From positions 1-64,000 of the IMG/VR virus record IMGVR_UViG_3300006947_000007: 64,000 nucleotides of DNA; one strand, written 5' to 3'. The notes under the pieces are model-generated. The model made no database searches. It was not told where the DNA came from and saw only the letters and a program-made list of their open reading frames with translations. This document shows positions 895 through 22,395 of this stretch, in pieces (position 1 is the stretch's first letter; every line of letters starts with the position of its first letter). The stretch is from a virus. A program made the position numbers and the translations under genes.

Positions 895-1119
895 TTAAAA
901 ATTAAATCGTTTTAATAATCGATGACTTATTAATCGATCATTTCTTCTACTTGCTTTTTTTAACTTTATTGCCCTAGCTCGTATTATTTTTAACTCTGTT
1001 TTACTTAAATCAGGTCTCGTAGTAAAACCTAAATAGCGTAGTGCCCTATATTTAAAGTTACCTTTCTTTTTGAAGTTGTTGATTGATGCTGGTTCATTTG
1101 TTACTGCCTCGTTTTTCAT
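895..1119 (-). CDS. Small very basic hypothetical protein
   Basis: 74 aa, K/R-rich, overlaps 3' end of upstream gene; GGAG upstream of ATG. Confidence 0.5.
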   Translation of the reverse strand: MKNEAVTNEPASINNFKKKGNFKYRALRYLGFTTRPDLSKTELKIIRARAIKLKKASRRNDRLISHRLLKRFNF

Positions 1120-3160
1120 TTTTCCAACTCCTCATTAATAGCCCTGGCATACCTTCGCCTTTGCCATTTGTTTTTAATTGTAACCCAAGTTTATTAGCCT
1201 GTCTTATTGTTTCACCAGGCTTAACATCCTTAGTAGTATTATATGGTGTTATGATTCCGACACCTTCGTCAAATATCATATCTTTCATACGGTTAGTAAC
1301 AAATAATTTAGACTCTGTAGTAATAGCATTTAATAGATCATCTGCTGATATATTGTAGTCGTGTTGTTTCCACAAATCTTTTAATTTATTTAACGTAGCA
1401 CCTAAGTTAGGTCCCGGTGTCATACCATGTTGAATAAGGTCTTTTCCTGTAATAGGAAACTCTGGCATTTTGAACTGTTCTATGTAATTTGCTAGTTCAG
1501 TTTGATTTTGTATCTTTGCTAAGTTACTAACTTTTGTTTTATCTTTGCCGTCAATAATTAAATGTTCTGCTTGTTCTTTGTTTAATTTTTTATTTCTATA
1601 AGACAGATAAAAATCTAGATCTTGTGCTTCGGCATTACTTAATCGCCATTTTTTAGCAACTGAAGAATCGTCTACTAATATTGCTAATGCTATAACAGGA
1701 TCTGTATTACCTTTTAAATCATTTAGCATTTGTATTTTGCTAGTATCTAAACCAATTACTTCATCAACGCTTGTAGCTGACATGTAAGACAATGTTTGAA
1801 TTACACTATGTCCTACAAGTAGTTTGGCCATTTCTTGCCATATTCTTTCTACAGAAACTTGTGATAATCCTTTAGCGTTATCTTTTATAGCATTTAATGT
1901 TTCTTGGTCCCAACTAGGACTTTCTAATTTACTTTGAAATCTAAAGTATCTTAATATTCTGAGGTAGTCTTCTTTAATACGTTCCACAGGATCGCCTACA
2001 AATTTACTAACTCTATCTTGTAAGTCGTCCATGCCGTTAAAGTAATCATACAAATTGCCATCGAAGTCTACACTCATAGCATTGTATGTTAAGTCTCTAC
2101 GTTGAGCATCTTCTTCCCAGTTACGAATAAATTCTACATCAGCATGTCTACCATCAGTACTAACATCTGCTCTTAGTGTTGTAATTTCATAGCCTTCACC
2201 ATCAATAATTGCTGTAAGAGTTCCGTGTTCTAATCCTGTCGGCTTATGTTTGATATTTGCTTTATCAAACATAGCAATCATTTCGTCTGGAGTAGCATCA
2301 GTTGCCAGGTCGATATCCTTAGGTAATTTGCCTAAAGCAATATCTCTAACAGCGCCTCCTACTATTCGTATCTCAAATTTATTATTTTTAAATACGCTGT
2401 CTAATTTTTCTAATGCTGGATTTAGGATCTCATTAAATGCGGTAGTGTCTAAGTCTTCATTTTCATATACTTTTCTTACTTTATGTTTGTAGTGCATATT
2501 AGAACTGTTATATCCCATTTTGACTTTAGGATACGATAATTTACCTGGAGTAGATTTTTTAATTTTTAATGGACGACGAAACCCTCCGTATGTCAGTCCA
2601 CTAACACTCATTACTCCTCGCTCTGTTAAGTATTTTTCTTTATACTCTTGTAGTCCTTTTACTACTACACTTAATGAATCTTCGTCTGCTTGATACTTAA
2701 TACCATGCCCGCCTGCTTTGTTCCAGTTTTCAATGTTTAATCCCCTATCATCAATTAATATGTTAGGAATGCCGTTTGAGACAGCGTATCCTTGCTTATT
2801 AGCAACGATTATCGAATTAACTGGTCGAGGGTTAAGATGTTTATTAATCCAAGAAAGTTTGTGTTTTTTGCTGTTGTTGTGATCATTTCTCAATGGGGAT
2901 GACAATATAGAGTACTTGCCAAACTGTTCTATCACAAGTTTTATAAGTTGATCTGTTGTAGGAAATTTAGGAAGTCTAGCAAAGAAGTCTGTGTCGATCA
3001 TCATGTTTAACGTAGGATCTACTTTAGCTGGAGGAATATCTCTATAACTTCCCGACTTAATTCCTGCTAATTTGGCCCATTCAGCAAAGAAGTCAGCAAG
3101 TACGCCGTCCATATCCACGTATACAATTGGTTCTTGTTTCTCTACTTCACCGAGTTTCAT
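1094..3160 (-). CDS. cca: Fusion: HAD 5'(3')-deoxyribonucleotidase-like domain + class II CCA-adding tRNA nucleotidyltransferase
   Basis: N-term VYVDMDGVLADF and LIDDR (HAD motifs I/IV); then VGGAVRD, DIDLAT, EITTLR, RRDLTYNAM, EDYLRILR (CCA/poly(A) polymerase head motifs). Confidence 0.9.
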   Translation of the reverse strand: MKLGEVEKQEPIVYVDMDGVLADFFAEWAKLAGIKSGSYRDIPPAKVDPTLNMMIDTDFFARLPKFPTTDQLIKLVIEQFGKYSILSSPLRNDHNNSKKHKLSWINKHLNPRPVNSIIVANKQGYAVSNGIPNILIDDRGLNIENWNKAGGHGIKYQADEDSLSVVVKGLQEYKEKYLTERGVMSVSGLTYGGFRRPLKIKKSTPGKLSYPKVKMGYNSSNMHYKHKVRKVYENEDLDTTAFNEILNPALEKLDSVFKNNKFEIRIVGGAVRDIALGKLPKDIDLATDATPDEMIAMFDKANIKHKPTGLEHGTLTAIIDGEGYEITTLRADVSTDGRHADVEFIRNWEEDAQRRDLTYNAMSVDFDGNLYDYFNGMDDLQDRVSKFVGDPVERIKEDYLRILRYFRFQSKLESPSWDQETLNAIKDNAKGLSQVSVERIWQEMAKLLVGHSVIQTLSYMSATSVDEVIGLDTSKIQMLNDLKGNTDPVIALAILVDDSSVAKKWRLSNAEAQDLDFYLSYRNKKLNKEQAEHLIIDGKDKTKVSNLAKIQNQTELANYIEQFKMPEFPITGKDLIQHGMTPGPNLGATLNKLKDLWKQHDYNISADDLLNAITTESKLFVTNRMKDMIFDEGVGIITPYNTTKDVKPGETIRQANKLGLQLKTNGKGEGMPGLLMRSWKNEKRGSNK

Positions 3161-6328: not shown

Positions 6329-7153
6329 TCAGTCTGGAGTTGTACTGTCTACTTTCTTTACATATTTTATAACTCTCGAAATTGAATTGCCAAGAACCAA
6401 GTCTACTAACGTTAAGTTGTGGTCGTCTTCAACATAAATCCAATCACCAAATGGTATACCGTAATTCCTATGTGCCAATGTACTCATGTCTGCTAATCGC
6501 CTATCAGTTACTTTAATAGTTTCTTGTGTGTTCAGGTCATTGATTATGTTAATTATAGATTCATTTTTCCTACACTTATCTTTAAGTATAACACGATACT
6601 TGTATTTCTCAAGTGGGAAATTATCACATTCTATTTCATTTGATTTAATTTTAGGGTTTACTAAATTAATTTCATGAATTAACTGATCTACCTCCTGTAA
6701 CAAAGAAAATATATTATGGTCGTTTGTGTAGAAGTCTACAATATTTCCTTCAATTCTAAGTTTAGGTTTTTCGCCTAACGTGTCGTACATCCATTGGATT
6801 AACTTATACGTGTCTTCGTACTCCTTATTCCATATGCTGTTTTTAGTTGTAGGTCTACTAAATGAGTTATTTAAATACGATTTTAATATACTCCTATCTT
6901 CGGGGAGTAAATTTGTTATCCATTGTTTGTATGGCATTGTATTAGCACCACTAAATTTAGCACGTCTTGAATAAAGCCAACGCCAATGATAAAGTGGACA
7001 AAACCGTATACGGATGTGAAACTTGCTATAGAACTGCTGGTCAGATATCCTAACTATAGAATAAAATTTATTTAAGTTCGGGTTTAAACTGGTCCAATAC
7101 AATGAGACCGGATTTGTCGACGCCTGTTGTAGATTCAGCTGGTAGCTCTTCAT
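6329..7153 (-). CDS. Hypothetical protein overlapping clpA 3' end by 86 nt
   Basis: GGAGG 5 nt upstream of ATG at 7153; open frame of 274 aa. Confidence 0.6.
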   Translation of the reverse strand: MKSYQLNLQQASTNPVSLYWTSLNPNLNKFYSIVRISDQQFYSKFHIRIRFCPLYHWRWLYSRRAKFSGANTMPYKQWITNLLPEDRSILKSYLNNSFSRPTTKNSIWNKEYEDTYKLIQWMYDTLGEKPKLRIEGNIVDFYTNDHNIFSLLQEVDQLIHEINLVNPKIKSNEIECDNFPLEKYKYRVILKDKCRKNESIINIINDLNTQETIKVTDRRLADMSTLAHRNYGIPFGDWIYVEDDHNLTLVDLVLGNSISRVIKYVKKVDSTTPD

Positions 7154-9380
7154 CTAACCCTCCTGTAGTAACTATAATTGTAAATAGATCATCTATATAA
7201 TCGATTCTCATTAATGAGCCTTCGGTTATTGTTTCGAATAAAATTTTCTTAGATAATGGGATTTTAATCTTATCTTCAATTACCCGTGCTAGTGGTCTAG
7301 CACCCATTTTCTTATCATATCCTAGCTCGGCTAACTGAGCGACAGCCTTCTCCATAAACTCAATTTTGATTCCTTTTTCTGCTAACAAGTCATTAATCTC
7401 TTCTTTAAATTTACCAACAATTTTCCTTACTACTTCAGTTGATAAATGGTTAAACTTACAAATGCCATCTAGTCTATTACGGAACTCTGGCTTAAAGAAG
7501 TTTTTAACTGCTTTGTCTTCTTCACCTGTTTTCTCTAATGTATTACTAAACCCTATGTTGTTCATTTCATTATCCATTGCTCCTAAATTCGATGTCATTA
7601 AGATAACTGTATTTCTAGCATCAGCTTTTTTACCATTGGTGCTTGTGATAAATCCTTCATCCATAAGTTGTAGTAACACATTGCTAACATCAGGGTGTGC
7701 TTTTTCTATCTCATCAAATAATATAACAGCATGTGGATTCTTTTCAATTTGACTTACTAGCAATCCACCCCCTAGGTTGCCGTCTTCGTATCCTACGTAA
7801 CCAGGAGGAGCACCAATCAGTCTTGCTATTGTGTGCTTCTCTTGATATTCTGACATATCAAATCTTAATAGCTTTGCTTGACTGTGTTCTGCTAATAGTT
7901 TAGCAAATTCTGTTTTGCCAGATCCTGTAGGACCTAGTAGTAAAAATGTTCCAATTGGTTTGTTAATACTTTTTAGTCCTGCTTTGCTTACCATAATTTT
8001 ATTAACTACAGTATCAATGACTTGATCTTGTCCAAATAGACTTGCTTTAATTTGATCATCTATGTCTGCCAAACTCTTTGTAACTTCAGAGTTTAATTGC
8101 TCTAATGGTATCTTAGTTGCTTTAGATAATTCGTCTATGATATTAGATTTACGAATTTTAAAGTTTTCGTATCCTAAGAAACGTTGCCTAGCACAGGCAC
8201 TATCGATTAAATCAATTGCCTTATCTGGTAGTTTCTTATCTGGTTGGTGTCTGACGCTAAGGTCAACAGCGGCTTCAATTGCCTCTGGAAATATTTTTGC
8301 TTTATGAAAATCCATAAAATACTTGTTAAGACCAGTAAGTATTTCTTTCGATACTTCTGGTGTGGGCTCTTCAACTGTTAGTCTATAAAATCTTCGCATA
8401 AATGCTCTGTCTTTTTCAAAGCTCTGCGTATAATCTTCCCATGTGGTAGTAGCTATTATTTTAACTTCTCCTTTAGCTAATGCTGGTTTCAGCATTTGCA
8501 TAAAATCTGGTCCACTGTTTCCCCCGGCGCCGGCACCCTTCATTTGATGTGCTTCATCAATGAAGATTATAGTGCCCGGTATTAGTTTTGCCGCGGCTAT
8601 AATATCTTTCAATCTTTCTTCAAACTCGCCTCTGTATTTGGTTCCAGCAATTAATCCGCCAACATCGAGATTGTGTATTTTACAATCTCGTAAATACTTT
8701 GGAACATTACCTGATATAATCCTGTTAGCTAACCCTTCAGCAATAGCAGTTTTGCCTACTCCGGGATCACCAATTAACAGTACGTTTGATTTGTTTCTTT
8801 TTGCTAATACTTGGCATATTTCTTCTATCTCAGATTCTCTACCGATAACAGGATCAATTTTGCTATTCTCAGCCTCTACATTTAAGTTAACTGTAAATTC
8901 ATCTAACGTTTCTTGAGCCATGCTTATATGTAGCTCTGTTTCGTCTTCGCCTGTATATGTCTTATTAAAAAATAATGTTAGGGCATCCTTGTCAACTCCA
9001 AACTTTTTAAAATAGTAGTAAGCATGACTACGTTGTTCAGCCATAATGCTCTGGAACAAGTCTATTGTTTGTAAATGCTGTCTACCACTAAACAATACTT
9101 GAGTAAATGCTCGATTACATACCCTATCTAATCCTTGTGTCTTTTGAACTTCAACAGGTGTTGCAGAAGCAATAGGTAATTGCTCAACGTAACCTCTAAG
9201 TTCTAAAGCAAGTTGTTCTTGATCACAACCATATTCTTCTAACATGATTTTAAAGTTTTTATAATTAACTAATGCTAATGTCAAGTGTTCAATAGTGACA
9301 TATGTGTGGTTCAGTGAATCCGCAAATTCATATGCTTTGCTTAAAATTAAATCCATTTCCGGGTTGTGCTTTATTGCCAT
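7068..9380 (-). CDS. clpA: ClpA-type double AAA+ chaperone/unfoldase
   Basis: Clp N domain, Walker A GDPGVGKT and GPTGSGKT, GTKYRGEFEERL, LPDKAIDLID, GAPPGYVGY, IGF ClpP-docking loop, MGARPL. Confidence 0.93.
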   Translation of the reverse strand: MAIKHNPEMDLILSKAYEFADSLNHTYVTIEHLTLALVNYKNFKIMLEEYGCDQEQLALELRGYVEQLPIASATPVEVQKTQGLDRVCNRAFTQVLFSGRQHLQTIDLFQSIMAEQRSHAYYYFKKFGVDKDALTLFFNKTYTGEDETELHISMAQETLDEFTVNLNVEAENSKIDPVIGRESEIEEICQVLAKRNKSNVLLIGDPGVGKTAIAEGLANRIISGNVPKYLRDCKIHNLDVGGLIAGTKYRGEFEERLKDIIAAAKLIPGTIIFIDEAHQMKGAGAGGNSGPDFMQMLKPALAKGEVKIIATTTWEDYTQSFEKDRAFMRRFYRLTVEEPTPEVSKEILTGLNKYFMDFHKAKIFPEAIEAAVDLSVRHQPDKKLPDKAIDLIDSACARQRFLGYENFKIRKSNIIDELSKATKIPLEQLNSEVTKSLADIDDQIKASLFGQDQVIDTVVNKIMVSKAGLKSINKPIGTFLLLGPTGSGKTEFAKLLAEHSQAKLLRFDMSEYQEKHTIARLIGAPPGYVGYEDGNLGGGLLVSQIEKNPHAVILFDEIEKAHPDVSNVLLQLMDEGFITSTNGKKADARNTVILMTSNLGAMDNEMNNIGFSNTLEKTGEEDKAVKNFFKPEFRNRLDGICKFNHLSTEVVRKIVGKFKEEINDLLAEKGIKIEFMEKAVAQLAELGYDKKMGARPLARVIEDKIKIPLSKKILFETITEGSLMRIDYIDDLFTIIVTTGGLDEELPAESTTGVDKSGLIVLDQFKPELK

Positions 9381-9389
9381 ATTATATTC

Positions 9390-9863
9390 CTAACTGTATT
9401 GTATTTCATTATTAAATCGTTGATTCATTGTTATTCCTTGACAATGATCATATTCGTGTAACCAACATCTTGCTTCTAAGTTTGTAAAATCTGCCGAGTA
9501 ATAGTTTCCTGCATAGTCTTGATATTTAACACTACAGTTTGTCGGCCGTTTAATCATCTTCGGTTCGCCTGGAAAACTCAAGCAACCTTCCTCTTCTGTT
9601 CTAAACGAAGCGAGTTGCCACGGAGCTTCGGTGTGTACTAGTTCAGGATTAATACAAGTAAGCATTGTACCGTCTAATCTTTTCATAATAAACATTTGTA
9701 TATTTACTCCACATTGGTTAGCCGCTAATCCTCGTCCACCGTTTTCAATCATAATAGCAATAAGTTCTAAATTGTATTTTTGATACAACTTTTTGCTTTT
9801 TTCTTTATCAGTCCAAGTAAGTTTTTTGCCTACCTTGTGTAGATATGTTGGATCTAATCTCAT
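9390..9863 (-). CDS. def: Peptide deformylase
   Basis: GRGLAANQ, EGCLS, HEYDH motifs. Confidence 0.92.
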   Translation of the reverse strand: MRLDPTYLHKVGKKLTWTDKEKSKKLYQKYNLELIAIMIENGGRGLAANQCGVNIQMFIMKRLDGTMLTCINPELVHTEAPWQLASFRTEEEGCLSFPGEPKMIKRPTNCSVKYQDYAGNYYSADFTNLEARCWLHEYDHCQGITMNQRFNNEIQYS

Positions 9864-9864
9864 T

Positions 9865-11085
9865 TTAATGTGCGGCCCATACTACAGTATTTAAATCAAT
9901 ACCGTCTTTATACATATCCCATAGAGGCGATAATTCTCTTAGCTTTTCTACTTTTTGTCTAACAAGTGTAATTGCTTTATCTACATGTTCTTCTGTTGTA
10001 TAACGTCCTATACTAAAACGTATTGAACTAGCTGATAATTCATCACTAAGTCCTATTGCTCTAAGAACGTAAGAAGGTTCTAAACTTGCTGAGGTACATG
10101 CCGATCCTGATGATACTGCGATACCAGTTATTGCCATCATTAACGATTCGCCTTCAACATAGTTAAAACTAATATTTAGGTTATTGCCAATACGTTGTTC
10201 CATATCGCCATTTACCTTTACTTCTTCCATGTCAGAGAAACCAGCGTACAATCTATCTCTAAGTCCACGTGTTCTAATTTCTTCGTCTGCCATCATTTCT
10301 TGTGCTAACGCAAATGCTTCACCGATGCCAACAATTTGATGTGTAGCTAATGTGCCTGAACGCATTCCACGTTCATGCCCACCGCCATGCATTTGTGCTT
10401 CAAGTCTAACTCTAGGCTTACGAGAAACATAAAGAGCTCCCATACCTTTTGGACCATAAATCTTATGTGCTGAAAAACTCATTAAGTCAACTGGAAGTTC
10501 TGTTAAGTTTATTGGGAGTTTACCAACTGACTGTGCCGCATCAACGTGAAAGAATGTTTTGTTTGCTCTACAAATATCACCAATTGTATGTAAGTCTTGA
10601 ATGACACCAATCTCATTATTAACGTGCATGAATGAAGCTAGAATTGTATCCTCTCTTATTGTAGATTTAAATTCTTCAATGTCTAACAGTCCACTTGGTA
10701 ATGGATTCATATACGTAACTTCAAAACCTTCTCGTTCAAGTTGACGACAAGTATCTAGTACTGCTTTATGTTCTGTCTTTGATGTGATAATATGTTTACC
10801 ACGTTTTTCATAAAAATGAGCAATACCCTTAATGGCTAGATTGTTAGACTCTGTAGCACCAGAGGTCCATACTATTTCTTTAGGATCTGCTCCTACTAAA
10901 TCTGCAACTTGTTTACGTGCTTTGTCTACTGCCGCCTCGGCTTGCCATCCATAATAATGTGAACGTGATGCTGGATTTCCAAATGTGCCTTCTAGTGTTA
11001 AGCACTCTGCCATTTTTTCAGCAACACGTTGATCTACAGGCGTAGTAGCCGAATAATCCATGTAAGTAGGTGTAATATCTGTCAT
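9865..11085 (-). CDS. iscS: Cysteine desulfurase IscS
   Basis: [33 protein letters not shown] (PLP Lys), [24 protein letters not shown]. Confidence 0.97.
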
Positions 11086-17418: not shown

Positions 17419-18030
17419 TTATCCTAACTTGTTAAGTTCTATTACGTTAGCACCTTTGCCGGTTATGAGTTCATATATGTCTTTCCAGTTCTTTGCTACA
17501 GGAAATCCGTGATTAGTATTCATGTTAAATCCATGTTCGATTACAATAGGTTTCAGGCCAGCGTTCTTACCAGCTACAGCATTTTCAACTTTATCTTCAA
17601 TCCACCACATCTTGCTATTCTTATATACAGATAGTGCTTCGTCTTTATCAGCGCCTGTACCTAAGCAAGTAACTTCTGTAAATACTCCTTCGCCAAACAA
17701 CTTGTCTAAGTTTTGTACTCTAAGTTTTTTAGCATGATAGTTAGTAGACATACTAGTAATAGCATGGAAAGTATATCCTTCGTCGGCCATTTTTGTTACA
17801 TATTCAACAGCATCTCGTAATGGGGGTAAAAACCCCATTGCGGCACTTTCGTTAAAAGTTTTAATAAGTTTTCTAGCTTGTTGCTTTTCAATTCCGTAAC
17901 GAAAGTTCATTCCGTATACAAATTCTTCGCCTTCTTGCTTTTTAAAGCCTTGTTCTATCATCCAGATATCAAAAGCGTACTCCCAGTTTAATAACACACC
18001 ATCTACATCTGTTAATATTGTCTTTTTCAT
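17419..18030 (-). CDS. HAD-family phosphatase/nucleotidase (start revised to 18030)
   Basis: ILTDVDGVLLNW, WIEDK. Confidence 0.85.
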   Translation of the reverse strand: MKKTILTDVDGVLLNWEYAFDIWMIEQGFKKQEGEEFVYGMNFRYGIEKQQARKLIKTFNESAAMGFLPPLRDAVEYVTKMADEGYTFHAITSMSTNYHAKKLRVQNLDKLFGEGVFTEVTCLGTGADKDEALSVYKNSKMWWIEDKVENAVAGKNAGLKPIVIEHGFNMNTNHGFPVAKNWKDIYELITGKGANVIELNKLG

Positions 18031-18060
18031 ATGAATCTCTTTATTGTTAATTATACTAAT

Positions 18061-18089
18061 ATTATACACTAGTTTTGGCCGTTTGTCAA
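18061..18089 (-). promoter_or_regulatory. sigma70 early promoter TTGACA-17-TATAAT
   Basis: Perfect consensus; shares GGCC and AGTGTATAAT with 25655, 43619, 51604. Confidence 0.85.
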
Positions 18090-18132
18090 CCTTTTTTCTT
18101 TCTATTTTTATTAAATTATTTTCATTTTTTTG

Positions 18133-18145
18133 TTAAATACTTATA
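18133..18145. promoter_or_regulatory. Putative bidirectional late promoter TTAAATACTTATA
   Basis: Second copy of the 13-mer, at a divergent junction. Confidence 0.6.
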
Positions 18146-18299
18146 ACAGTAAAATAGAGTTGCTGTAAGTAATAGTAATAGTAATAGGAATATATAGACT
18201 ACAACGAAGGGAGCAGTCCCGTTTCTAAGCCTAAATAGATAAACGGCACACATAGACGCTAATAATGGTGCTGTGACGAAAAACAATAAGGATTAGAAT
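18146..18299 (+). ncRNA. Candidate structured 5' leader RNA
   Basis: Hairpins GACT..AGTC, CCGTTT..AAACGG, CAC..GTG; motif shared with 45900-46085. Confidence 0.35.
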
Positions 18300-19124
18300 A
18301 TGTTTAGATCTTTTTTTCAAGAGACAAAGTGGTTGCTGATCATCAGTTTCACATTACTTGCCGTACTCGGAGGCAACGTATATTGGTTCGCAACTTTACC
18401 AGTTACTGCTGGCGACCAGTGGCACGCTCCTAACTTTGAAGACCCCAATAGAGATGTTCTATCGCCTTTAGCGTTTAAAAAGATCGGTGATCATCTGTAT
18501 ACAATGACCGGTAATATCTTAGCAGAAGACTGTGAACGTATTGTTCCAGACCTACCTAAAGGTGACCATCCATTTACAGTTATATTAGAAAGCCCAGGCG
18601 GATCATTAGCAGATGGGGCCTGTTTAGCAGGGCATCTTAAAATTCGAAACGTAGTAACTGTAATTAGAGACACACCTATACTAAACGAAGACGGCGAAGT
18701 GATATATGAGCCAGGACTAATTGGCCTAGCAGGCGATCCTGATCCAGATGGAAAAGTAATATGTGCCTCTTCGTGTTCATTACTATTTTTAGCAGGTGAC
18801 AATCGTTACTTGATTGGTGATGTGTGGTTAGGAATACACGGACCCAGAACACCTGATGATGCTATCGCTGGTATCGGTAAAAGAGCCCTCGAGGCATCAG
18901 CATATAGGACTTCAGCCGCAATAATGTTAATGTTAGATCAATTAGGAGTAACAGACAATCAAATTAAATATATGTTTGTTCAAGTTCCTTCAACATCGAT
19001 GTATTGGCTTAATGTAAAAGATTTTGAATATAAACCCGAACTCAAAACACTAGCTACCCACTATAAAAACTTTTGGGGTTTTACTGGCGTTGGTGCTGTA
19101 GGGTTCGACGGTACTCAACAATGA
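18300..19124 (+). CDS. Membrane-anchored ClpP/crotonase-fold protein (COG3904-like)
   Basis: N-term TM; ESPGG, CASSC, GIH motifs. Confidence 0.7.
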   Translation: MFRSFFQETKWLLIISFTLLAVLGGNVYWFATLPVTAGDQWHAPNFEDPNRDVLSPLAFKKIGDHLYTMTGNILAEDCERIVPDLPKGDHPFTVILESPGGSLADGACLAGHLKIRNVVTVIRDTPILNEDGEVIYEPGLIGLAGDPDPDGKVICASSCSLLFLAGDNRYLIGDVWLGIHGPRTPDDAIAGIGKRALEASAYRTSAAIMLMLDQLGVTDNQIKYMFVQVPSTSMYWLNVKDFEYKPELKTLATHYKNFWGFTGVGAVGFDGTQQ

Positions 19125-19140
19125 TCAAAGGAGATATACA

Positions 19141-20166
19141 ATGTTAAAATCGTTTTTTGGAACATGGGCCTATGCCTTTTATGCTTGGGCAATGCTAAGT
19201 GTATTGCTAGGTATATCTTGGTACACCGTAGAAATACTTGTTTTTTATAATGCCTGGAATAAAGAAATTTATGATGTCATTCAAACATTAAACGAAGATA
19301 GATTTTGGGAATTATTCTTAGGATTTGATTTAGGACGAATGTGGGAGTTTTTCACATTAACAGAAGACACAATGCCGTCATTTGTTGAGATTATAATATT
19401 ATATACACCAATAGCCGTGTATGCTTCTTGGCAAACACAAAGGTATTGTTTTAAATGGCGTGAAGCTAATACTCACCATTACTTAGTTAGGTGGGAGAAT
19501 TGTAAAGCTAAAATAGAAGGTGGTAGTCAGCGTATACAAGAAGACTTAATGATATTTGGTAAAACCCTACAAGGGTTATTTACTGGATTCTTTTCTTCTA
19601 TATTAATACTAATTGCTTTCCTCCCTATTCTATGGGAATTGTCTGAAGGTTTGCCAATATGGAACGGCAAAATAATTCCAGGATTCTTAGTATGGGTAGC
19701 ATTAAGTGTATCTATAGGTGGTACATTGATATCTGTTATCCTTGGTTGGAAACTTCCAAAACTTGAGTACAATAATCAAAAAGTTGAAGCTACTTTTAGA
19801 AAACAATTAGTGTACTCCGAAGATGATTTTAATAGCAGGGCTACCGAAGTTCTATTTCCTATGTTTTCATCAGTTAAAAGAAACTACTATAGACTTTTTA
19901 ACTGGTATATGGGATTTGGCGTCTGGCAAACAGCATTTGGATTATGTGTAGGCAACTTAGCACTTATCGTACTTGCTCCAGCATACTTCCAACAGCTGAT
20001 TACTTTAGGCGTATTATTCCAAGTTCTAAACGCCTTTGGTAGAGTAGAAAGTTCAATGGGTTTCTTCATAGATAGATGGACTACAATTGTAGACTTTTTA
20101 TCAGTAATAAAACGTATCCGTGAATTTAACAAGGCCCTGGACCAAGCAGAATTAGAGGAAAAATAA
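19141..20166 (+). CDS. sbmA: SbmA/BacA-family peptide transporter
   Basis: IEGGSQRIQED, KLPKLEYNNQKVEATFRKQLVYSEDD, ITLG..Q..NAFGRV, WTTIV match SbmA/BacA conserved blocks. Confidence 0.88.
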   Translation: MLKSFFGTWAYAFYAWAMLSVLLGISWYTVEILVFYNAWNKEIYDVIQTLNEDRFWELFLGFDLGRMWEFFTLTEDTMPSFVEIIILYTPIAVYASWQTQRYCFKWREANTHHYLVRWENCKAKIEGGSQRIQEDLMIFGKTLQGLFTGFFSSILILIAFLPILWELSEGLPIWNGKIIPGFLVWVALSVSIGGTLISVILGWKLPKLEYNNQKVEATFRKQLVYSEDDFNSRATEVLFPMFSSVKRNYYRLFNWYMGFGVWQTAFGLCVGNLALIVLAPAYFQQLITLGVLFQVLNAFGRVESSMGFFIDRWTTIVDFLSVIKRIREFNKALDQAELEEK

Positions 20167-20167
20167 A

Positions 20168-20650
20168 ATGATAAAGAAAACTTTAGCCAGATGGTGGCTA
20201 ATTACTGTCATCACATTGTGTGGATTTGTGCCAGTATATCAATACGGCATATTCCATGACATTTATAAGGCAGACGTGACTGGTATTCACTTAGTGATTT
20301 ACGGTGTGTTTCTAATAGCAACAATTCTAACAGGGATTGCCGCTTATAGAACATCCAAGGATTCTAGCAAAAAATATAATTCAACAACACACAAAGTAAT
20401 AGAAATGAATTGGTTCTGTTCAGAAGCTATGATGACATTAGGTTTGATTGGTACTGTAGCAGGTATGATATATTTGTTTGGGCAGATCTTTTTAGACATA
20501 GATCCAAGTAATGCAGACGATTTGAAAAAGGCATTATCTTATATGGCTACTGGTTTGTCAACTGCTATGTACACTACGATTTGCGGTATGATCGGAGCGT
20601 TGCTTATCAAGGTCCAATTAATGAGTATAGAGTTTGATCAAGATGGATAA
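20168..20650 (+). CDS. MotA/TolQ/ExbB proton-channel family protein
   Basis: 4 TM; LGLIGTVAGMI and GLSTAMYTT..G signature. Confidence 0.85.
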   Translation: MIKKTLARWWLITVITLCGFVPVYQYGIFHDIYKADVTGIHLVIYGVFLIATILTGIAAYRTSKDSSKKYNSTTHKVIEMNWFCSEAMMTLGLIGTVAGMIYLFGQIFLDIDPSNADDLKKALSYMATGLSTAMYTTICGMIGALLIKVQLMSIEFDQDG

Positions 20651-21323
20651 AAATAAGTATAAAAGCATGACATCATTCCTAGATATGTTATGGATATTAC
20701 TAGCAGGGTTTGGTGCTATGTTTATTATTGCTTTTCTTCTTATACAACCTCCAGCAAAAGAGGCAGATATTATTAAGAAAGCAGAATATATTATTGTCCT
20801 TAGTTGGGACAGTAAAGTAGGTGATGATATTGACCTTTGGGTACAAGATCCAAAAGGTGTTACGGTTAGTTTTAAAAATAGATCAGCCGGCTTTATGAAC
20901 TTAGAAAAAGACGACCTCGGAAGAACAAACGATACTATGACAGACGAGTATGGTACTGTAACTGTTATGGAAATAAACAGAGAAACAATAACACTTCGAG
21001 GGACTATAGAAGGCGAATACCAAGTTATGATTCATGTTTACAACAGAGAGTTTAAGAGTATGGGCACAGGATTAGGCAGAGAACGAACTACTGGGCCGGT
21101 ACCGTATACAGTTGAAGTTGTTAAGATTAATCCTTATAGAATTGTTTATGCCGAAGAAGGATTTTATGAATTTGACAAACAGGAAATAAGCATTGTAAGA
21201 TTTAAAGTAGATAAAAAAGGTTGGTTTGATGGTTTTAACAAAGATCCATCAAACATTATAATGATGAGATCTACCTCGTACGACGGCAATACTGAAACAG
21301 TAGACGGGACACCAAGATTATGA
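20634..21323 (+). CDS. ExbD/MotB-like single-TM partner with beta-rich exported domain
   Basis: TM SFLDMLW carrying the Asp; DIDLWVQDP..LEKDDLG..E.I..R...GEY domain; start possibly 20643. Confidence 0.65.
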   Translation: MIKMDKNKYKSMTSFLDMLWILLAGFGAMFIIAFLLIQPPAKEADIIKKAEYIIVLSWDSKVGDDIDLWVQDPKGVTVSFKNRSAGFMNLEKDDLGRTNDTMTDEYGTVTVMEINRETITLRGTIEGEYQVMIHVYNREFKSMGTGLGRERTTGPVPYTVEVVKINPYRIVYAEEGFYEFDKQEISIVRFKVDKKGWFDGFNKDPSNIIMMRSTSYDGNTETVDGTPRL

Positions 21324-21820
21324 TACTAGATATAGAAACTACTAAACTCTTTTTAACAATATCAATTTTCATACTAATGGGATTTAGTTTATTAGTATCC
21401 ATTCGTTACGGTAAACTAAATAAATGGACTTACATAATGATTCCTGTTATATTAGCGTTATCTATAACTGTTAAAATTAGTATAGAAGATATGTTAGGTT
21501 ATCCTACTAACAGACAAGTAACTAAAGAACAATTATACCTGACTCACATGATCGGTATAAACAAAGAATGGATATATATTTGGGCAATTGACAAACAAGT
21601 ATCTATGGTGCCAAGGTCATATAGAATAGACTATACTAAAGAAAATGAGAAAAAACTTAATGAAGCTAAGAATCAAGCATCAAGCGGAGTGCCAATGGGA
21701 GTGACAATTGAACGGCCGCCTATATCATTAAGTGATAATCAAGATCAAACTAGAGTCCGAGTAGATATTTACAACAAATTTACTGGGGTAACTAAACAAA
21801 TTAATGGGGAAAATGAATGA
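21320..21820 (+). CDS. 2-TM membrane protein
   Basis: ATGA overlap; two TMs, LGYP and PRSY motifs. Confidence 0.7.
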   Translation: MILDIETTKLFLTISIFILMGFSLLVSIRYGKLNKWTYIMIPVILALSITVKISIEDMLGYPTNRQVTKEQLYLTHMIGINKEWIYIWAIDKQVSMVPRSYRIDYTKENEKKLNEAKNQASSGVPMGVTIERPPISLSDNQDQTRVRVDIYNKFTGVTKQINGENE

Positions 21821-22395
21821 GTGAGAAAAAACAATTAACACCAGCAGACATGATACCACCTAAAATAGAATTACTATTAAATGGTATGTATGTGTTTATG
21901 GGAGATGTTTCTATGGAAACTATGAGTCCAGTAGTTGACTGGATACTCGCTGAAAACATGAAAAAAACTAATAAAGCAAAAGAATTAACCTTAGGGATTT
22001 GTTCTCGAGGTGGAGACTTAAATGCCTGTTTTGCTTTAGTTGATGTTATGAGGGCGTCGTCAATACCCGTTAAAACAGTAGGACTTGGGATGATTGCTTC
22101 ATGCGGTTTACTGTTGTTTATATCAGGTAAGAAAGGACGAAGAGTGCTTACACCTAATACAGCAATATTGTCTCACCAGTACAGTTGGGGAAGTGTAGGT
22201 AAAGAACACGAACTATTTGCTCGTGTTAAGGAAATGGAACTAACCTCAGAGCGTTTAATTAATCACTATAGAAAGTGTACAGGATTATCAGAAAAGAAAA
22301 TTAGAGAAGTTTTACTACCTCCTCAAGATGTATGGCTTGGTTCCGAAGAAGCCTTAGCATTAAAACTTTGCGATAGGGTAGAAAGCATTAAATAG
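21817..22395 (+). CDS. clpP: ClpP protease subunit
   Basis: CSRGGD, IASCG (Ser), LSHQ (His), QDVWL (Asp). Confidence 0.88.
   Translation: MSEKKQLTPADMIPPKIELLLNGMYVFMGDVSMETMSPVVDWILAENMKKTNKAKELTLGICSRGGDLNACFALVDVMRASSIPVKTVGLGMIASCGLLLFISGKKGRRVLTPNTAILSHQYSWGSVGKEHELFARVKEMELTSERLINHYRKCTGLSEKKIREVLLPPQDVWLGSEEALALKLCDRVESIK

What the first reader, a model, noticed from the sequence alone, without database searches (positions are those of the whole stretch)
18300..22395. Six-gene envelope operon: exported ClpP-fold protein + SbmA/BacA importer + MotA/ExbB-type motor + ClpP
Seen: the only long plus-strand operon in the window, with short gaps or overlaps and its own late box and structured leader. 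It is bracketed by two ClpP-fold proteins, one membrane-anchored and one cytoplasmic, both with apparent Ser/His catalytic motifs. Between them lie SbmA/BacA, a MotA/TolQ/ExbB channel, an Asp-bearing single-TM partner without an OmpA domain, and a 2-TM protein. Known: SbmA/BacA are proton-driven peptide importers; MotA/ExbB pairs are PMF motors (Ton, Tol, stators, ZorAB). Inference: a PMF-powered cut, import and degrade machine, used for peptide scavenging, receptor removal/superinfection exclusion, or interference with Zorya/Ton systems. ClpA encoded at 7068-9380 could partner ClpP.
Basis: partly seen in the sequence, partly recalled or inferred. Interest (0 to 1): 0.82.

Follow-up and report, generated by a model that had tools for sequence, protein, structure and literature searches.

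The report
Phage mini ion-motor operon with SbmA
A marine jumbo-phage fragment carries one operon that joins an undescribed three-protein relative of the flagellar-stator/Ton/Tol ion motors to a membrane-anchored peptidase, an SbmA-type peptide importer and a ClpP protease. The genes are real, but the conserved unit is the motor trio, not the six genes, and its job is still unknown.

Summary
Observation confirmed. Six tightly packed plus-strand genes lie at 18300-22395 of an 82-kb IMG/VR phage record (about 23% complete). Pfam confirms SbmA/BacA (g2), MotA/ExbB (g3) and ClpP (g6). Profile comparison supports a ClpP-like fold for g1. g4 has one membrane helix with an invariant Asp, and g5 has two membrane helices.

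The six genes are not one conserved unit. The order g3-g4-g5 is kept in 122 of 125 related loci. These include marine phages, cultured Rhizobium phages (16-3 p038-p042, P10VF), and cellular genomes of Alphaproteobacteria, Desulfobacterales and CPR bacteria, where the trio stands alone among housekeeping genes. g1 and g2 form a strict pair (16 of 16 loci). SbmA, ClpP and, in one clade, ClpS sit beside the trio in several different orders. In other jumbo phages SbmA lies 30-50 kb away or was not found.

The predicted periplasmic domain of g4 is a TerD-like beta-sandwich. It resembles neither ExbD/TolR nor OmpA.

Best reading: a composite operon made of a minimal ion-driven motor, a peptidase-importer pair, and a ClpP that probably partners the phage ClpA. 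A single "cut, import, degrade" machine is possible but unproven.

The scan found the same system earlier on other DNA (e1-6020584). No paper retrieved describes the trio.

The parts
18070..18299 (+). Upstream intergenic region with an (AGTAAT)x3 repeat at 18168-18185 and a Shine-Dalgarno-like AAGGA before the g1 start. The promoter is not identified.
   Evidence: Sequence read. No + strand sigma-70-like site here; the 12/12 consensus site at 18089-18061 is on the minus strand and faces the NT5C/HAD gene. Fold z-score -1.8. CTAAATAG is not enriched.
18300..19124 (+). g1: membrane-anchored, probably periplasmic, ClpP/S14-S49-like serine peptidase homologue (274 aa). It has one N-terminal TM helix and invariant SPGG, Ser157 and His180.
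   Evidence: No Pfam hit. Alignment A2 invariants. hhalign against the ClpP alignment: 66% with a shallow alignment, 85.7% and E 5.5e-6 with a deeper one. Atlas neighbours are 'periplasmic protein-like' and a cluster partly carrying CLP_protease. TM. The AlphaFold model was too poor to use (pLDDT 54).
19141..20166 (+). g2: short SbmA/BacA-family inner-membrane transporter (341 aa).
   Evidence: Pfam SbmA_BacA 5e-79. Solved SbmA 7p34 E 9e-54, covering SbmA residues 83-400. The best NCBIfam model is the short 'putative transporter' PRK12369, at 302 bits, below its 385 cut-off.
20168..20650 (+). g3: minimal MotA/ExbB/TolQ-family channel subunit (160 aa, 4 hydrophobic helices, about 28-aa cytoplasmic loop, no cytoplasmic domain).
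   Evidence: Pfam MotA_ExbB above the gathering score. PADLOC and NCBIfam hits to ZorA cover only the TM region. Invariant G92, G95, T96, G99 and A133, T136, T137, G140. The family profile matches only MotA, PomA, TolQ, ExbB and ZorA chains in the PDB (E 0.004-0.6).
20643..21323 (+). g4: B-subunit-like partner. It is N-in with a single TM helix carrying invariant Asp17 (numbering from the TTG at 20634), followed by a periplasmic TerD-like beta-sandwich.
   Evidence: Alignment A1. AlphaFold model pLDDT 81. TerD is the top hit by Foldseek (E 2.5e-4 to 1e-3) and by VIA-align (2qz7_B Z 8.8, 135 residues, rmsd 4.0; 2kxt Z 7.7; next hit 5.6). No Pfam, PDB-sequence or significant hhalign match to TerD or ExbD. 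The family has 2099 clusters at 50% identity.
21320..21820 (+). g5: third subunit with two TM helices and a periplasmic C-terminal region carrying G(W/Y)P and PRxY..PYS motifs. No known family.
   Evidence: Alignment A4. No Pfam, PHROG, NCBIfam or PDB match. It follows g4 in 122 of 125 loci.
21817..22395 (+). g6: divergent cytoplasmic ClpP with an intact Ser95-His120-Asp171 triad. It is the only ClpP in the 82-kb record.
   Evidence: Pfam CLP_protease 1.6e-25. Alignment A3. 103 solved ClpP sequences matched at E up to 1e-5, best 1.5e-17. Single ClpP hit in the record.
7068..9380 (-). ClpA-type double-AAA+ unfoldase, the candidate partner of g6. It lies outside the operon.
   Evidence: Pfam AAA_2 2e-54, AAA, ClpB_D2-small, AAA_lid_9, Clp_N. 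Two Walker A motifs and an IGF motif at residue 609.

Best explanation
The operon is a composite of three modules that this phage lineage transcribes together.

(1) g3-g4-g5 is a self-contained, minimal member of the MotA/ExbB/TolQ class of ion-driven membrane motors. g3 supplies the channel ring. g4 supplies the central helix with the ion-binding Asp. The output is periplasmic, through the TerD-like beta-sandwich of g4 and the periplasmic part of g5, because g3 has no cytoplasmic domain. Cells also carry this trio as a stand-alone operon, and phages have taken it up widely.

(2) g1 and g2 form a pair. g1 is a membrane-anchored periplasmic Ser/His peptidase of the ClpP fold. g2 is a proton-driven SbmA-type peptide importer directly downstream. 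The pair most likely cuts periplasmic or envelope proteins or peptides and imports the products.

(3) g6 is a cytoplasmic ClpP that most likely works with the phage's own ClpA.

Shown here: the gene identities, conserved catalytic and ion-binding residues, predicted topology, the g4 fold prediction and the synteny patterns. Inferred: 5:2 stoichiometry, ion drive, peptidase activity, substrate, and any physical or functional coupling between modules. My working guess for the combined role is envelope-protein turnover and peptide salvage in the infected cell, with the motor acting on the envelope.
For: Gene identities.

Trio as the unit: same order in 75 of 80 viral loci and 42 of 44 genome loci, and in 32 of 32 viral loci with full 8-kb flanks. 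It is also present in Rhizobium phages 16-3, P10VF, RHph_N3_19 and RHph_I1_18 and on an Azospirillum brasilense chromid.

Cellular context: the trio is flanked by otsA/otsB, a LysR regulator, NadA, NAD kinase and acyl-CoA dehydrogenase. Only the trio is shared among 7 loci from one bacterial family. g4 was found in 51 of 61 genomes of that family, in 43 of 301 of its class, and in 7 of 151 genomes of the class of a Saccharibacteria MAG.

Motor features: invariant Asp17 and a strongly conserved g4 TM helix; conserved Gly/Thr pore motifs in g3; TerD-like fold for g4.

g1-g2 pair: 16 of 16 loci, with gaps of 4-21 nt. g1 ClpP-like with Ser and His aligned.

g6 and ClpA.

Recurrent but rearranged neighbourhood of SbmA, ClpP and ClpS with the trio.

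Exact-match pieces of g1, g3 and g6 occur in marine metatranscriptome contigs from three studies. This is only a weak hint of expression.
Against: No experiment or complex prediction supports the assembly or the ion drive.

g3 matches MotA/ExbB only over the pore helices, at modest scores. g4 has no sequence-detectable relation to ExbD, TolR or MotB. Its TerD likeness rests on one predicted model at Z 8.8, close to the typical best-hit range of 7-8, and hhalign to TerD is not significant.

The g1 fold assignment rests on an 86% profile match. Its AlphaFold model failed, and the third catalytic acid of ClpP is not conserved at the aligned position.

Adjacency of SbmA, ClpP and the trio could be inherited from a common jumbo-phage ancestor rather than selected. 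In three other trio phages SbmA lies 30-50 kb away, and two others gave no SbmA match.

RNA-library contigs may stem from contaminating DNA.
Confidence: 0.5

Rival explanations
1. One integrated machine. The motor trio physically energises the g1 peptidase and/or the SbmA importer, for example Ton-like uptake across the outer membrane, and ClpP finishes degradation in the cytoplasm.
For: All six genes are translationally coupled here. SbmA is the most frequent neighbour of the trio, in at least four arrangements across the viral g4 tree. ClpS or ClpP also lie beside the trio in other clades. In one Desulfobacterales contig a ClpP-fold protein with a lipoprotein-like signal sits directly upstream of the trio.
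Against: Most trio loci, and nearly all cellular ones, lack SbmA, g1 and ClpP within 8 kb. SbmA lies 30-50 kb from the trio in three large phage records and gave no match in two others, one of them 91% complete. SbmA is known to be self-sufficient and proton-driven (established knowledge of the family). g1 is almost confined to phages: weak hits in 5 of 301 alphaproteobacterial genomes.
Confidence: 0.15
2. The trio is a conflict device: superinfection exclusion or counter-defence. It would act on the envelope, or titrate or mimic host Ton/Tol/Zorya-type motors, to block entry of other phages or bacteriocins or to disarm a membrane defence.
For: It sits among early or replication-region genes in Rhizobium phages. 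g3's best curated partial matches are ZorA models. The TerD fold is the fold of the ter-operon proteins; a link of that operon to phage and colicin resistance is my own recollection, not tested here.
Against: Cellular homologues are near-universal in one bacterial family and sit among housekeeping genes, not in defence islands. PADLOC has no hit for g4 or g5. No Zor-type tail or effector genes are present.
Confidence: 0.15
3. Host-function replacement. The phage trio simply substitutes for or boosts the host's own trio, an envelope-maintenance motor of Alphaproteobacteria, during infection. The neighbouring genes are unrelated auxiliary genes that happen to share a transcript.
For: Cellular trios occur in marine alphaproteobacterial MAG contigs, one beside a SufC-like gene, and form the other half of the g4 tree. 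All cultured phages carrying the trio that were found in the phage collection infect Rhizobium or Sinorhizobium, which are Alphaproteobacteria.
Against: This does not explain the repeated, rearranged proximity of SbmA, ClpP and ClpS. The host of this phage is unknown.
Confidence: 0.15

Closest known systems
ExbB-ExbD-TonB and TolQ-TolR-TolA (Ton and Tol-Pal inner-membrane energisers)
   Same: Three co-transcribed inner-membrane proteins. One is a MotA/ExbB-family channel with the Gly/Thr pore motifs. One is an N-in single-TM partner with an essential-looking Asp near the cytoplasmic end. A third membrane protein has a periplasmic part. The output is periplasmic rather than cytoplasmic.
   Different: g3 is far smaller (160 aa, 4 TM helices, no cytoplasmic domain). 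g4 has a predicted TerD-like beta-sandwich instead of the ExbD/TolR fold and no Pfam ExbD match. g5 has two TM helices and no TonB/TolA-type Pfam match. The trio also occurs in CPR bacteria, where it is the only MotA/ExbB homologue in the two genomes examined.
MotA-MotB / PomA-PomB flagellar stators
   Same: Four-TM A subunit with conserved TM3-TM4 pore helices, and a B subunit with a TM Asp. The best solved-structure sequence match of the g3 profile is a MotA (8gqy, E 0.004).
   Different: No torque-generating cytoplasmic loop, no OmpA-like peptidoglycan-binding domain, and an obligatory third subunit.
ZorA-ZorB (Zorya anti-phage defence)
   Same: Distant MotA/ExbB-type channel. The best curated subfamily matches of g3 are ZorA models, over the TM region only.
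   Different: No long ZorA tail (g3 is 160 aa against model lengths of 413-683). No ZorB-type partner match and no ZorC/D-type genes. It is phage-encoded and is also found among housekeeping genes in cells.
SbmA / BacA peptide importers (solved SbmA 7p34)
   Same: g2 aligns with SbmA residues 83-400 at E 9e-54, including the IEG..QR.QED motif.
   Different: It lacks about 80 N-terminal residues of E. coli SbmA and belongs to the short (about 330 aa) subfamily. It is virus-encoded and always preceded by the g1 peptidase whenever g1 is present.
ClpP (S14); membrane-anchored ClpP-fold peptidases SppA (S49) and NfeD (from my own knowledge of these families)
   Same: g6 is a ClpP with a full triad. 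g1 shares the SPGG oxyanion motif and the aligned Ser and His, and like SppA and NfeD it is membrane-anchored.
   Different: g6 scores far below the NCBIfam ClpP cut-offs and has an unusual N-terminus. g1 matches no Pfam model, keeps His (SppA, as I recall, uses a Ser-Lys dyad) and lacks the ClpP Asp at the aligned position.
TerD-domain proteins (solved TerD homologues 2qz7 and 2kxt)
   Same: The predicted periplasmic domain of g4 superposes on TerD (Z 8.8 and 7.7). It carries invariant acidic clusters (DDIDLW, DDLG..ND) where hhalign places the TerD acidic motifs.
   Different: No significant sequence or profile match. The domain is fused to a TM-Asp helix and predicted to be periplasmic. Ca2+ binding is untested.

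Membership tests
MotA/TolQ/ExbB proton channel family (PF01618), for g3 | Match to the family model above the curated cut-off | tested here: met
   31.4 bits against a cut-off of 22.9, E 1.8e-7, residues 86-146. Cellular homologues also pass, at 28.9-34.9 bits.
MotA/TolQ/ExbB proton channel family (PF01618), for g3 | Conserved pore-helix Gly/Thr motifs in the last two TM helices | tested here: met
   Invariant G92, G95, T96, G99 and A133, T136, T137, G140 in 19 diverse sequences.
MotA/TolQ/ExbB proton channel family (PF01618), for g3 | Pentamer of A subunits around a dimer of B subunits | not testable with these tools
ExbD/TolR (PF02472), for g4 | Match to the family model and an ExbD/TolR-type periplasmic domain | tested here: not met
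   No Pfam hit at E up to 1. The predicted periplasmic domain is an all-beta sandwich, and its best structural matches are TerD.
ExbD/TolR/MotB-type B subunit (functional class), for g4 | N-in single TM helix with a conserved Asp near the cytoplasmic end, encoded next to the A subunit | tested here: met
   Asp17 is invariant and the TM helix is highly conserved. The N-terminus is Lys-rich. g4 is adjacent to g3 in essentially all loci.
MotB/OmpA-type stator anchor, for g4 | OmpA-like peptidoglycan-binding domain | tested here: not met
   No OmpA Pfam match. The model is a beta-sandwich.
TonB/TolA-type force transducer, for g5 | Match to a TonB/TolA family model; single TM anchor, extended linker and C-terminal domain | tested here: not met
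   g5 has two predicted TM helices and no match in Pfam, NCBIfam or PDB sequences. No structure was predicted for g5.
Zorya ZorAB, for g3 and g4 | Long ZorA C-terminal tail, a ZorB-type partner, and ZorC/D or other effector genes | tested here: not met
   g3 is 160 aa and matches only the first ~120 positions of the 413-aa NCBIfam ZorA model and of most PADLOC ZorA models (up to position 179 of the 683-position ZorA1 model), far below cut-offs. No PADLOC hit for g4 or g5.
SbmA/BacA (PF05992), for g2 | Full-length match to the family model | tested here: met
   266 bits, profile positions 5-314 of 315. Solved SbmA E 9e-54.
SbmA equivalog (NF008306) and PRK12369 (NF009036), for g2 | Score above the curated equivalog cut-off | tested here: not met
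   236 bits against a cut-off of 492, and 302 against 385. g2 is a family member but not an equivalog of either.
ClpP (PF00574, peptidase S14), for g6 | Family model match and the Ser-His-Asp triad | tested here: met
   90.5 bits. Ser95 and His120 invariant, Asp171 nearly invariant.
ClpP equivalogs (NCBIfam), for g6 | Score above curated cut-offs | tested here: not met
   Best 79 bits against cut-offs of 228-249. It is a divergent paralogue.
ClpP/S14-S49 fold, for g1 | Detectable homology to ClpP with the oxyanion motif and nucleophile aligned | tested here: inconclusive
   No Pfam hit. hhalign 85.7%, E 5.5e-6, with Ser157 and His180 aligned to the ClpP Ser and His. The third acid is not conserved. 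The structure model was unusable.
TerD domain (PF02342), for the g4 periplasmic domain | Sequence or profile match to TerD | tested here: inconclusive
   No Pfam or PDB-sequence hit. hhalign against 23 TerD proteins gives E 0.069, probability 0.8%. TerD is the top structural match by two methods.

The most novel reading that the evidence does not exclude
g3-g4-g5 is a further functional class of 5:2 ion-driven motors, beside Mot, Ton/Tol, Gld/Agl and Zor. It would be defined by a stripped-down channel, a B subunit with a periplasmic TerD-like, possibly Ca2+-binding, domain, and an obligatory two-TM third subunit. It would drive an envelope process not yet known in Alphaproteobacteria, Desulfobacterales and CPR bacteria. 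Phages would have captured it and, in marine jumbo phages, linked it to SbmA-mediated peptide import and Clp proteolysis.
Probability: 0.25. Interest if true: 0.85.

Novelty: new variant of a known kind. Interest (0 to 1): 0.64.

Why it matters
Ion-driven 5:2 motors are known to power flagella, Ton and Tol transport, gliding and Zorya defence. This trio is a large family: about 2,100 clusters at 50% identity for g4 alone. None of the papers my searches retrieved describe it. It is smaller than the characterised MotA, ExbB, TolQ and ZorA systems compared here. It has a different periplasmic output domain and needs a third protein.

It occurs in phages and in cells, including two CPR genomes where it is the only MotA/ExbB relative. 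It therefore cannot simply be a Ton or Tol copy.

It is present in culturable systems: Rhizobium phages 16-3 and P10VF, and Azospirillum brasilense. Its function can be tested directly.

Virus-encoded SbmA importers paired with an exported ClpP-fold peptidase are a second untested idea. They suggest how marine jumbo phages may feed on, or reshape, the envelope of the infected cell.

Tried and rejected
1. blastn of the whole operon against 50,697 phage records gave no match. tblastn with g2 found only two Acinetobacter records and one Salmonella record. tblastn with g3 found only two Rhizobium phages.

Context was obtained through the search for related loci and the genome search instead.

3. 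The AlphaFold model of g1 from a 13-sequence alignment had pLDDT 54 and was not searched. This used one of the two structure jobs, so g5 and g3 were not modelled.

4. The g1 profile against PDB sequences gave only a marginal ClpP hit (E 0.55).

5. The g4 and g5 profiles against PDB sequences gave chance-level hits only.

6. hhalign of a deep g4 alignment against TerD proteins fetched from genomes was not significant. TerD was not found in five trio-bearing genomes.

7. 'Late box': CTAAATAG is not enriched.

8. 'Structured leader': not significant.

9. Exported protease as a universal neighbour: a trypsin-like peptidase lies near the trio in 16-3 and RHph_N3_19 but not in P10VF or RHph_I1_18. 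Rejected as a rule.

10. Bacterial precedent for the g1-g2 pair: g1 is almost absent from 301 alphaproteobacterial genomes.

11. Literature searches found no description of the trio or of phage SbmA operons.

12. Metatranscriptome contigs cover only short parts of the operon and cannot show a single transcript. Parts without cover mean nothing.

13. The careful tree search did not finish. The quick tree was used.

Full report
**What the window is.** The window is the first 64 kb of an 82,405-bp IMG/VR virus record that CheckV rates about 23% complete. That implies a jumbo phage of roughly 350 kb. Nearly identical DNA is held by many marine metagenomes. Other genes in the window include a ClpA-type unfoldase, peptide deformylase, an IscS-like desulfurase, PhoH, a CCA-adding enzyme fusion, DNA ligase and radical-SAM proteins.

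**The observation.**
- Six + strand ORFs lie at 18300-22395.
- Junctions are a 16-nt gap, a 1-nt gap, an 8-nt overlap and two ATGA overlaps.
- This is the only long + strand block in the window, and GC skew flips across it.
- Pfam identifies g2 as SbmA/BacA (5e-79), g3 as MotA/ExbB (31 bits, above the 22.9 cut-off) and g6 as ClpP (1.6e-25). g1, g4 and g5 match nothing in Pfam or PADLOC, and only chance-level hits far below the cut-offs in PHROGs and NCBIfam.
- Hydropathy gives one N-terminal TM helix in g1, four in g3, one in g4, two in g5 and none in g6.
- The claimed 'late box' and 'structured leader' were not reproduced.

**The individual proteins.**
- *g6.* It keeps the ClpP Ser-His-Asp triad. 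It matches 103 distinct solved ClpP sequences at E up to 1e-5 but scores far below the NCBIfam ClpP cut-offs. It is the only ClpP in the 82-kb record. The ClpA-like gene at 7068-9380 has two Walker A motifs and an IGF motif at residue 609, about where I recall the ClpP-docking loop of ClpA to lie. A ClpA-g6 protease is therefore plausible.
- *g1.* It has invariant SPGG, C-A-S157-x-C and G-I-H180-x-P motifs. A profile-profile comparison with the g6-type ClpP alignment gives 66% with a shallow alignment and 85.7% (E 5.5e-6, 155 columns) with a deeper one. g1 Ser157 and His180 fall on the ClpP Ser and His. The ClpP Asp position is not conserved. Atlas neighbours include 'periplasmic protein-like' proteins and a cluster partly carrying CLP_protease. 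The AlphaFold model failed.
- *g2.* It aligns with solved SbmA over residues 83-400. It fits best a short 'putative transporter' model, below that model's cut-off.
- *g3.* It keeps the pore-helix Gly/Thr motifs. Its family profile finds only MotA, PomA, TolQ, ExbB and ZorA chains among solved structures, at marginal E-values. It has only about 28 residues between TM2 and TM3, so it has no cytoplasmic domain.
- *g4.* It has an invariant Asp17 in a very conserved TM helix with a Lys-rich N-terminus. Its model (pLDDT 81) shows a long helix followed by a beta-sandwich. The best structural matches by two independent aligners are TerD proteins. Foldseek gives E 2.5e-4 to 1e-3. VIA-align gives Z 8.8 and 7.7, against 5.6 for the next hit. 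Sequence and profile methods do not confirm homology to TerD.
- *g5.* It has two TM helices and conserved G(W/Y)P and PRxY..PYS motifs. It has no known relatives.

**What is conserved.** An alignment of g4 homologues retrieved 80 viral loci (the best 80 of 270) and 44 loci from species-representative genomes.
- Iterative profile searches of all ORFs in these loci find g3, g4 and g5 in that order in 122 of 125 loci.
- Among 32 viral loci with full 8-kb flanks, the trio is present in 32, SbmA in 13, ClpP in 9 and g1 in 8. Among 22 such genome loci, each of the three accessory genes is present in only 1.
- g1 is followed by g2 in 16 of 16 loci, with gaps of 4-21 nt.
- Arrangements differ:
  - g1-g2-trio-g6 in our clade.
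  - g6...trio-x-g1-g2.
  - trio, then one or more small ORFs, then g2.
  - trio-ClpS-g2...canonical ClpP. ClpS was confirmed at 2.5e-27.
  - ClpP-trio. One of these ClpP proteins carries a lipoprotein-like signal.
- On a quick maximum-likelihood tree of g4, the SbmA-adjacent arrangements occupy at least four separate places in the viral half. Our arrangement is one well-supported clade.
- In five large trio-bearing phage records, SbmA is 30-50 kb from the trio in three, including a 342.6-kb record with direct terminal repeats. The other two gave no SbmA match, one of them 91% complete. Canonical ClpP genes lie far from the trio.

**The trio in cells and in cultured phages.**
- In MAG contigs of Geminicoccaceae, Desulfobacterales and CPR bacteria, the trio is a three-gene operon. 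Its neighbours include trehalose genes, a LysR regulator, NadA, NAD kinase and acyl-CoA dehydrogenase.
- In the two CPR genomes it is the only MotA/ExbB-family hit. The large genomes also carry canonical paralogues.
- g4 homologues were found in 51 of 61 genomes of the family of one such MAG. One of these, G051, is an unpublished genome; without it the count is 50 of 60. They were also found in 43 of 301 genomes of its class, and in 7 of 151 genomes of the class of the Saccharibacteria MAG.
- Seven loci of a second, more distant paralogue type are again complete trios. They share nothing else.
- Azospirillum brasilense carries a complete trio on a chromid.
- Cultured Rhizobium and Sinorhizobium phages carry it, annotated as hypothetical, among early or replication genes. 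Examples are 16-3 p038-p042, P10VF_191-193, RHph_N3_19 and RHph_I1_18.
- A whole-library HMM search finds 2099 clusters at 50% identity for g4.

**Interpretation.** The six genes are best read as three modules on one transcript.
- The trio has the hallmarks of the MotA/ExbB class: pore motifs, a partner with a TM Asp, and tight gene coupling. Its periplasmic domain and third subunit have no match among described systems. Its lack of a cytoplasmic domain points to periplasmic output.
- The strict g1-g2 pairing supports a periplasmic peptidase feeding an SbmA-type importer.
- g6 most simply pairs with the phage ClpA.
- The repeated but rearranged proximity of SbmA, ClpP and ClpS to the trio in phages suggests co-regulation or a loose functional link. 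The many loci and cellular genomes without these genes argue against an obligatory six-part machine.
- Short exact-match contigs of g1, g3 and g6 in marine metatranscriptome libraries from three studies are a weak hint of expression.

**Literature and earlier notes.** Full-text searches found no description of this trio or of phage SbmA operons. A 2025 survey of MotAB relatives mentions generic ion transporters of unknown function but nothing like this architecture. The scan had already noted the same system on another genome, with the same reading. That is not independent evidence.

**Limits.**
- No multimer prediction was possible.
- g5 and g3 were not modelled.
- The tree is a quick search with a midpoint root.
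- The host of this phage is unknown.
- All functions are inferred.

Noticed in passing
window 7068-11085 (minus strand): A ClpA-type unfoldase with an IGF motif, a peptide deformylase (9390-9863) and an IscS-like class-V aminotransferase (9865-11085) lie side by side. Together they form a phage-encoded set of protein-processing and quality-control genes.
   Followed up: partly
L067:9151-9450, and the equivalent ORFs in L077 and L086: In another clade of marine jumbo phages a ClpS adaptor gene (Pfam ClpS 2.5e-27) sits directly between the trio and the SbmA gene. A canonical ClpP lies 1-2 kb further on.
   Followed up: partly
L121:580-1227 (Desulfobacterales MAG contig): A ClpP-fold protein (Pfam 1.7e-11) with an N-terminal hydrophobic segment ending in a lipobox-like LGAC lies directly upstream of a cellular trio. 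It may be an exported ClpP-like partner outside phages.
   Followed up: no
L136:3142-5082 (Azospirillum brasilense MTCC4038 plasmid p1, NZ_CP032340.1): A complete g3-g4-g5-like trio in a culturable, genetically tractable bacterium. The copy of the record held here carries no annotation for it.
   Followed up: partly
L131:4199-6132 (Rhizobium phage 16-3, p038-p042): The classic temperate phage 16-3 carries the trio, split by small ORFs p039 and p041. A trypsin-like periplasmic protease gene (p036) lies just upstream.
   Followed up: partly
G515, the record holding L019 (342,607 bp, direct terminal repeats, CheckV 100%): A jumbo-phage record rated complete, with the trio near 35 kb, an SbmA-like gene at 77 kb and two ClpP genes at 167 and 252 kb. 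It is useful as a reference genome for this phage group.
   Followed up: no
window 18061-18089 (minus strand): A perfect sigma-70 consensus (TTGACA, 17 nt, TATAAT) faces the NT5C/HAD-family gene at 17419-18069. This suggests host-polymerase early transcription of that gene and a later internal ATG start.
   Followed up: no
window 18168-18185: An (AGTAAT)x3 tandem repeat lies in the gap upstream of g1. Its meaning is unknown.
   Followed up: no
window 1094-3160 (minus strand): An NT5C-type nucleotidase domain is fused to a CCA-adding / poly(A) polymerase head domain (687 aa).
   Followed up: no
L090-L100 (marine alphaproteobacterial MAG contigs, one titled Pelagibacteraceae): These trios group with the cellular half of the g4 tree, and one lies near a SufC-like ABC ATPase. 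Marine Alphaproteobacteria may therefore own a cellular trio and may be the hosts of these phages.
   Followed up: partly
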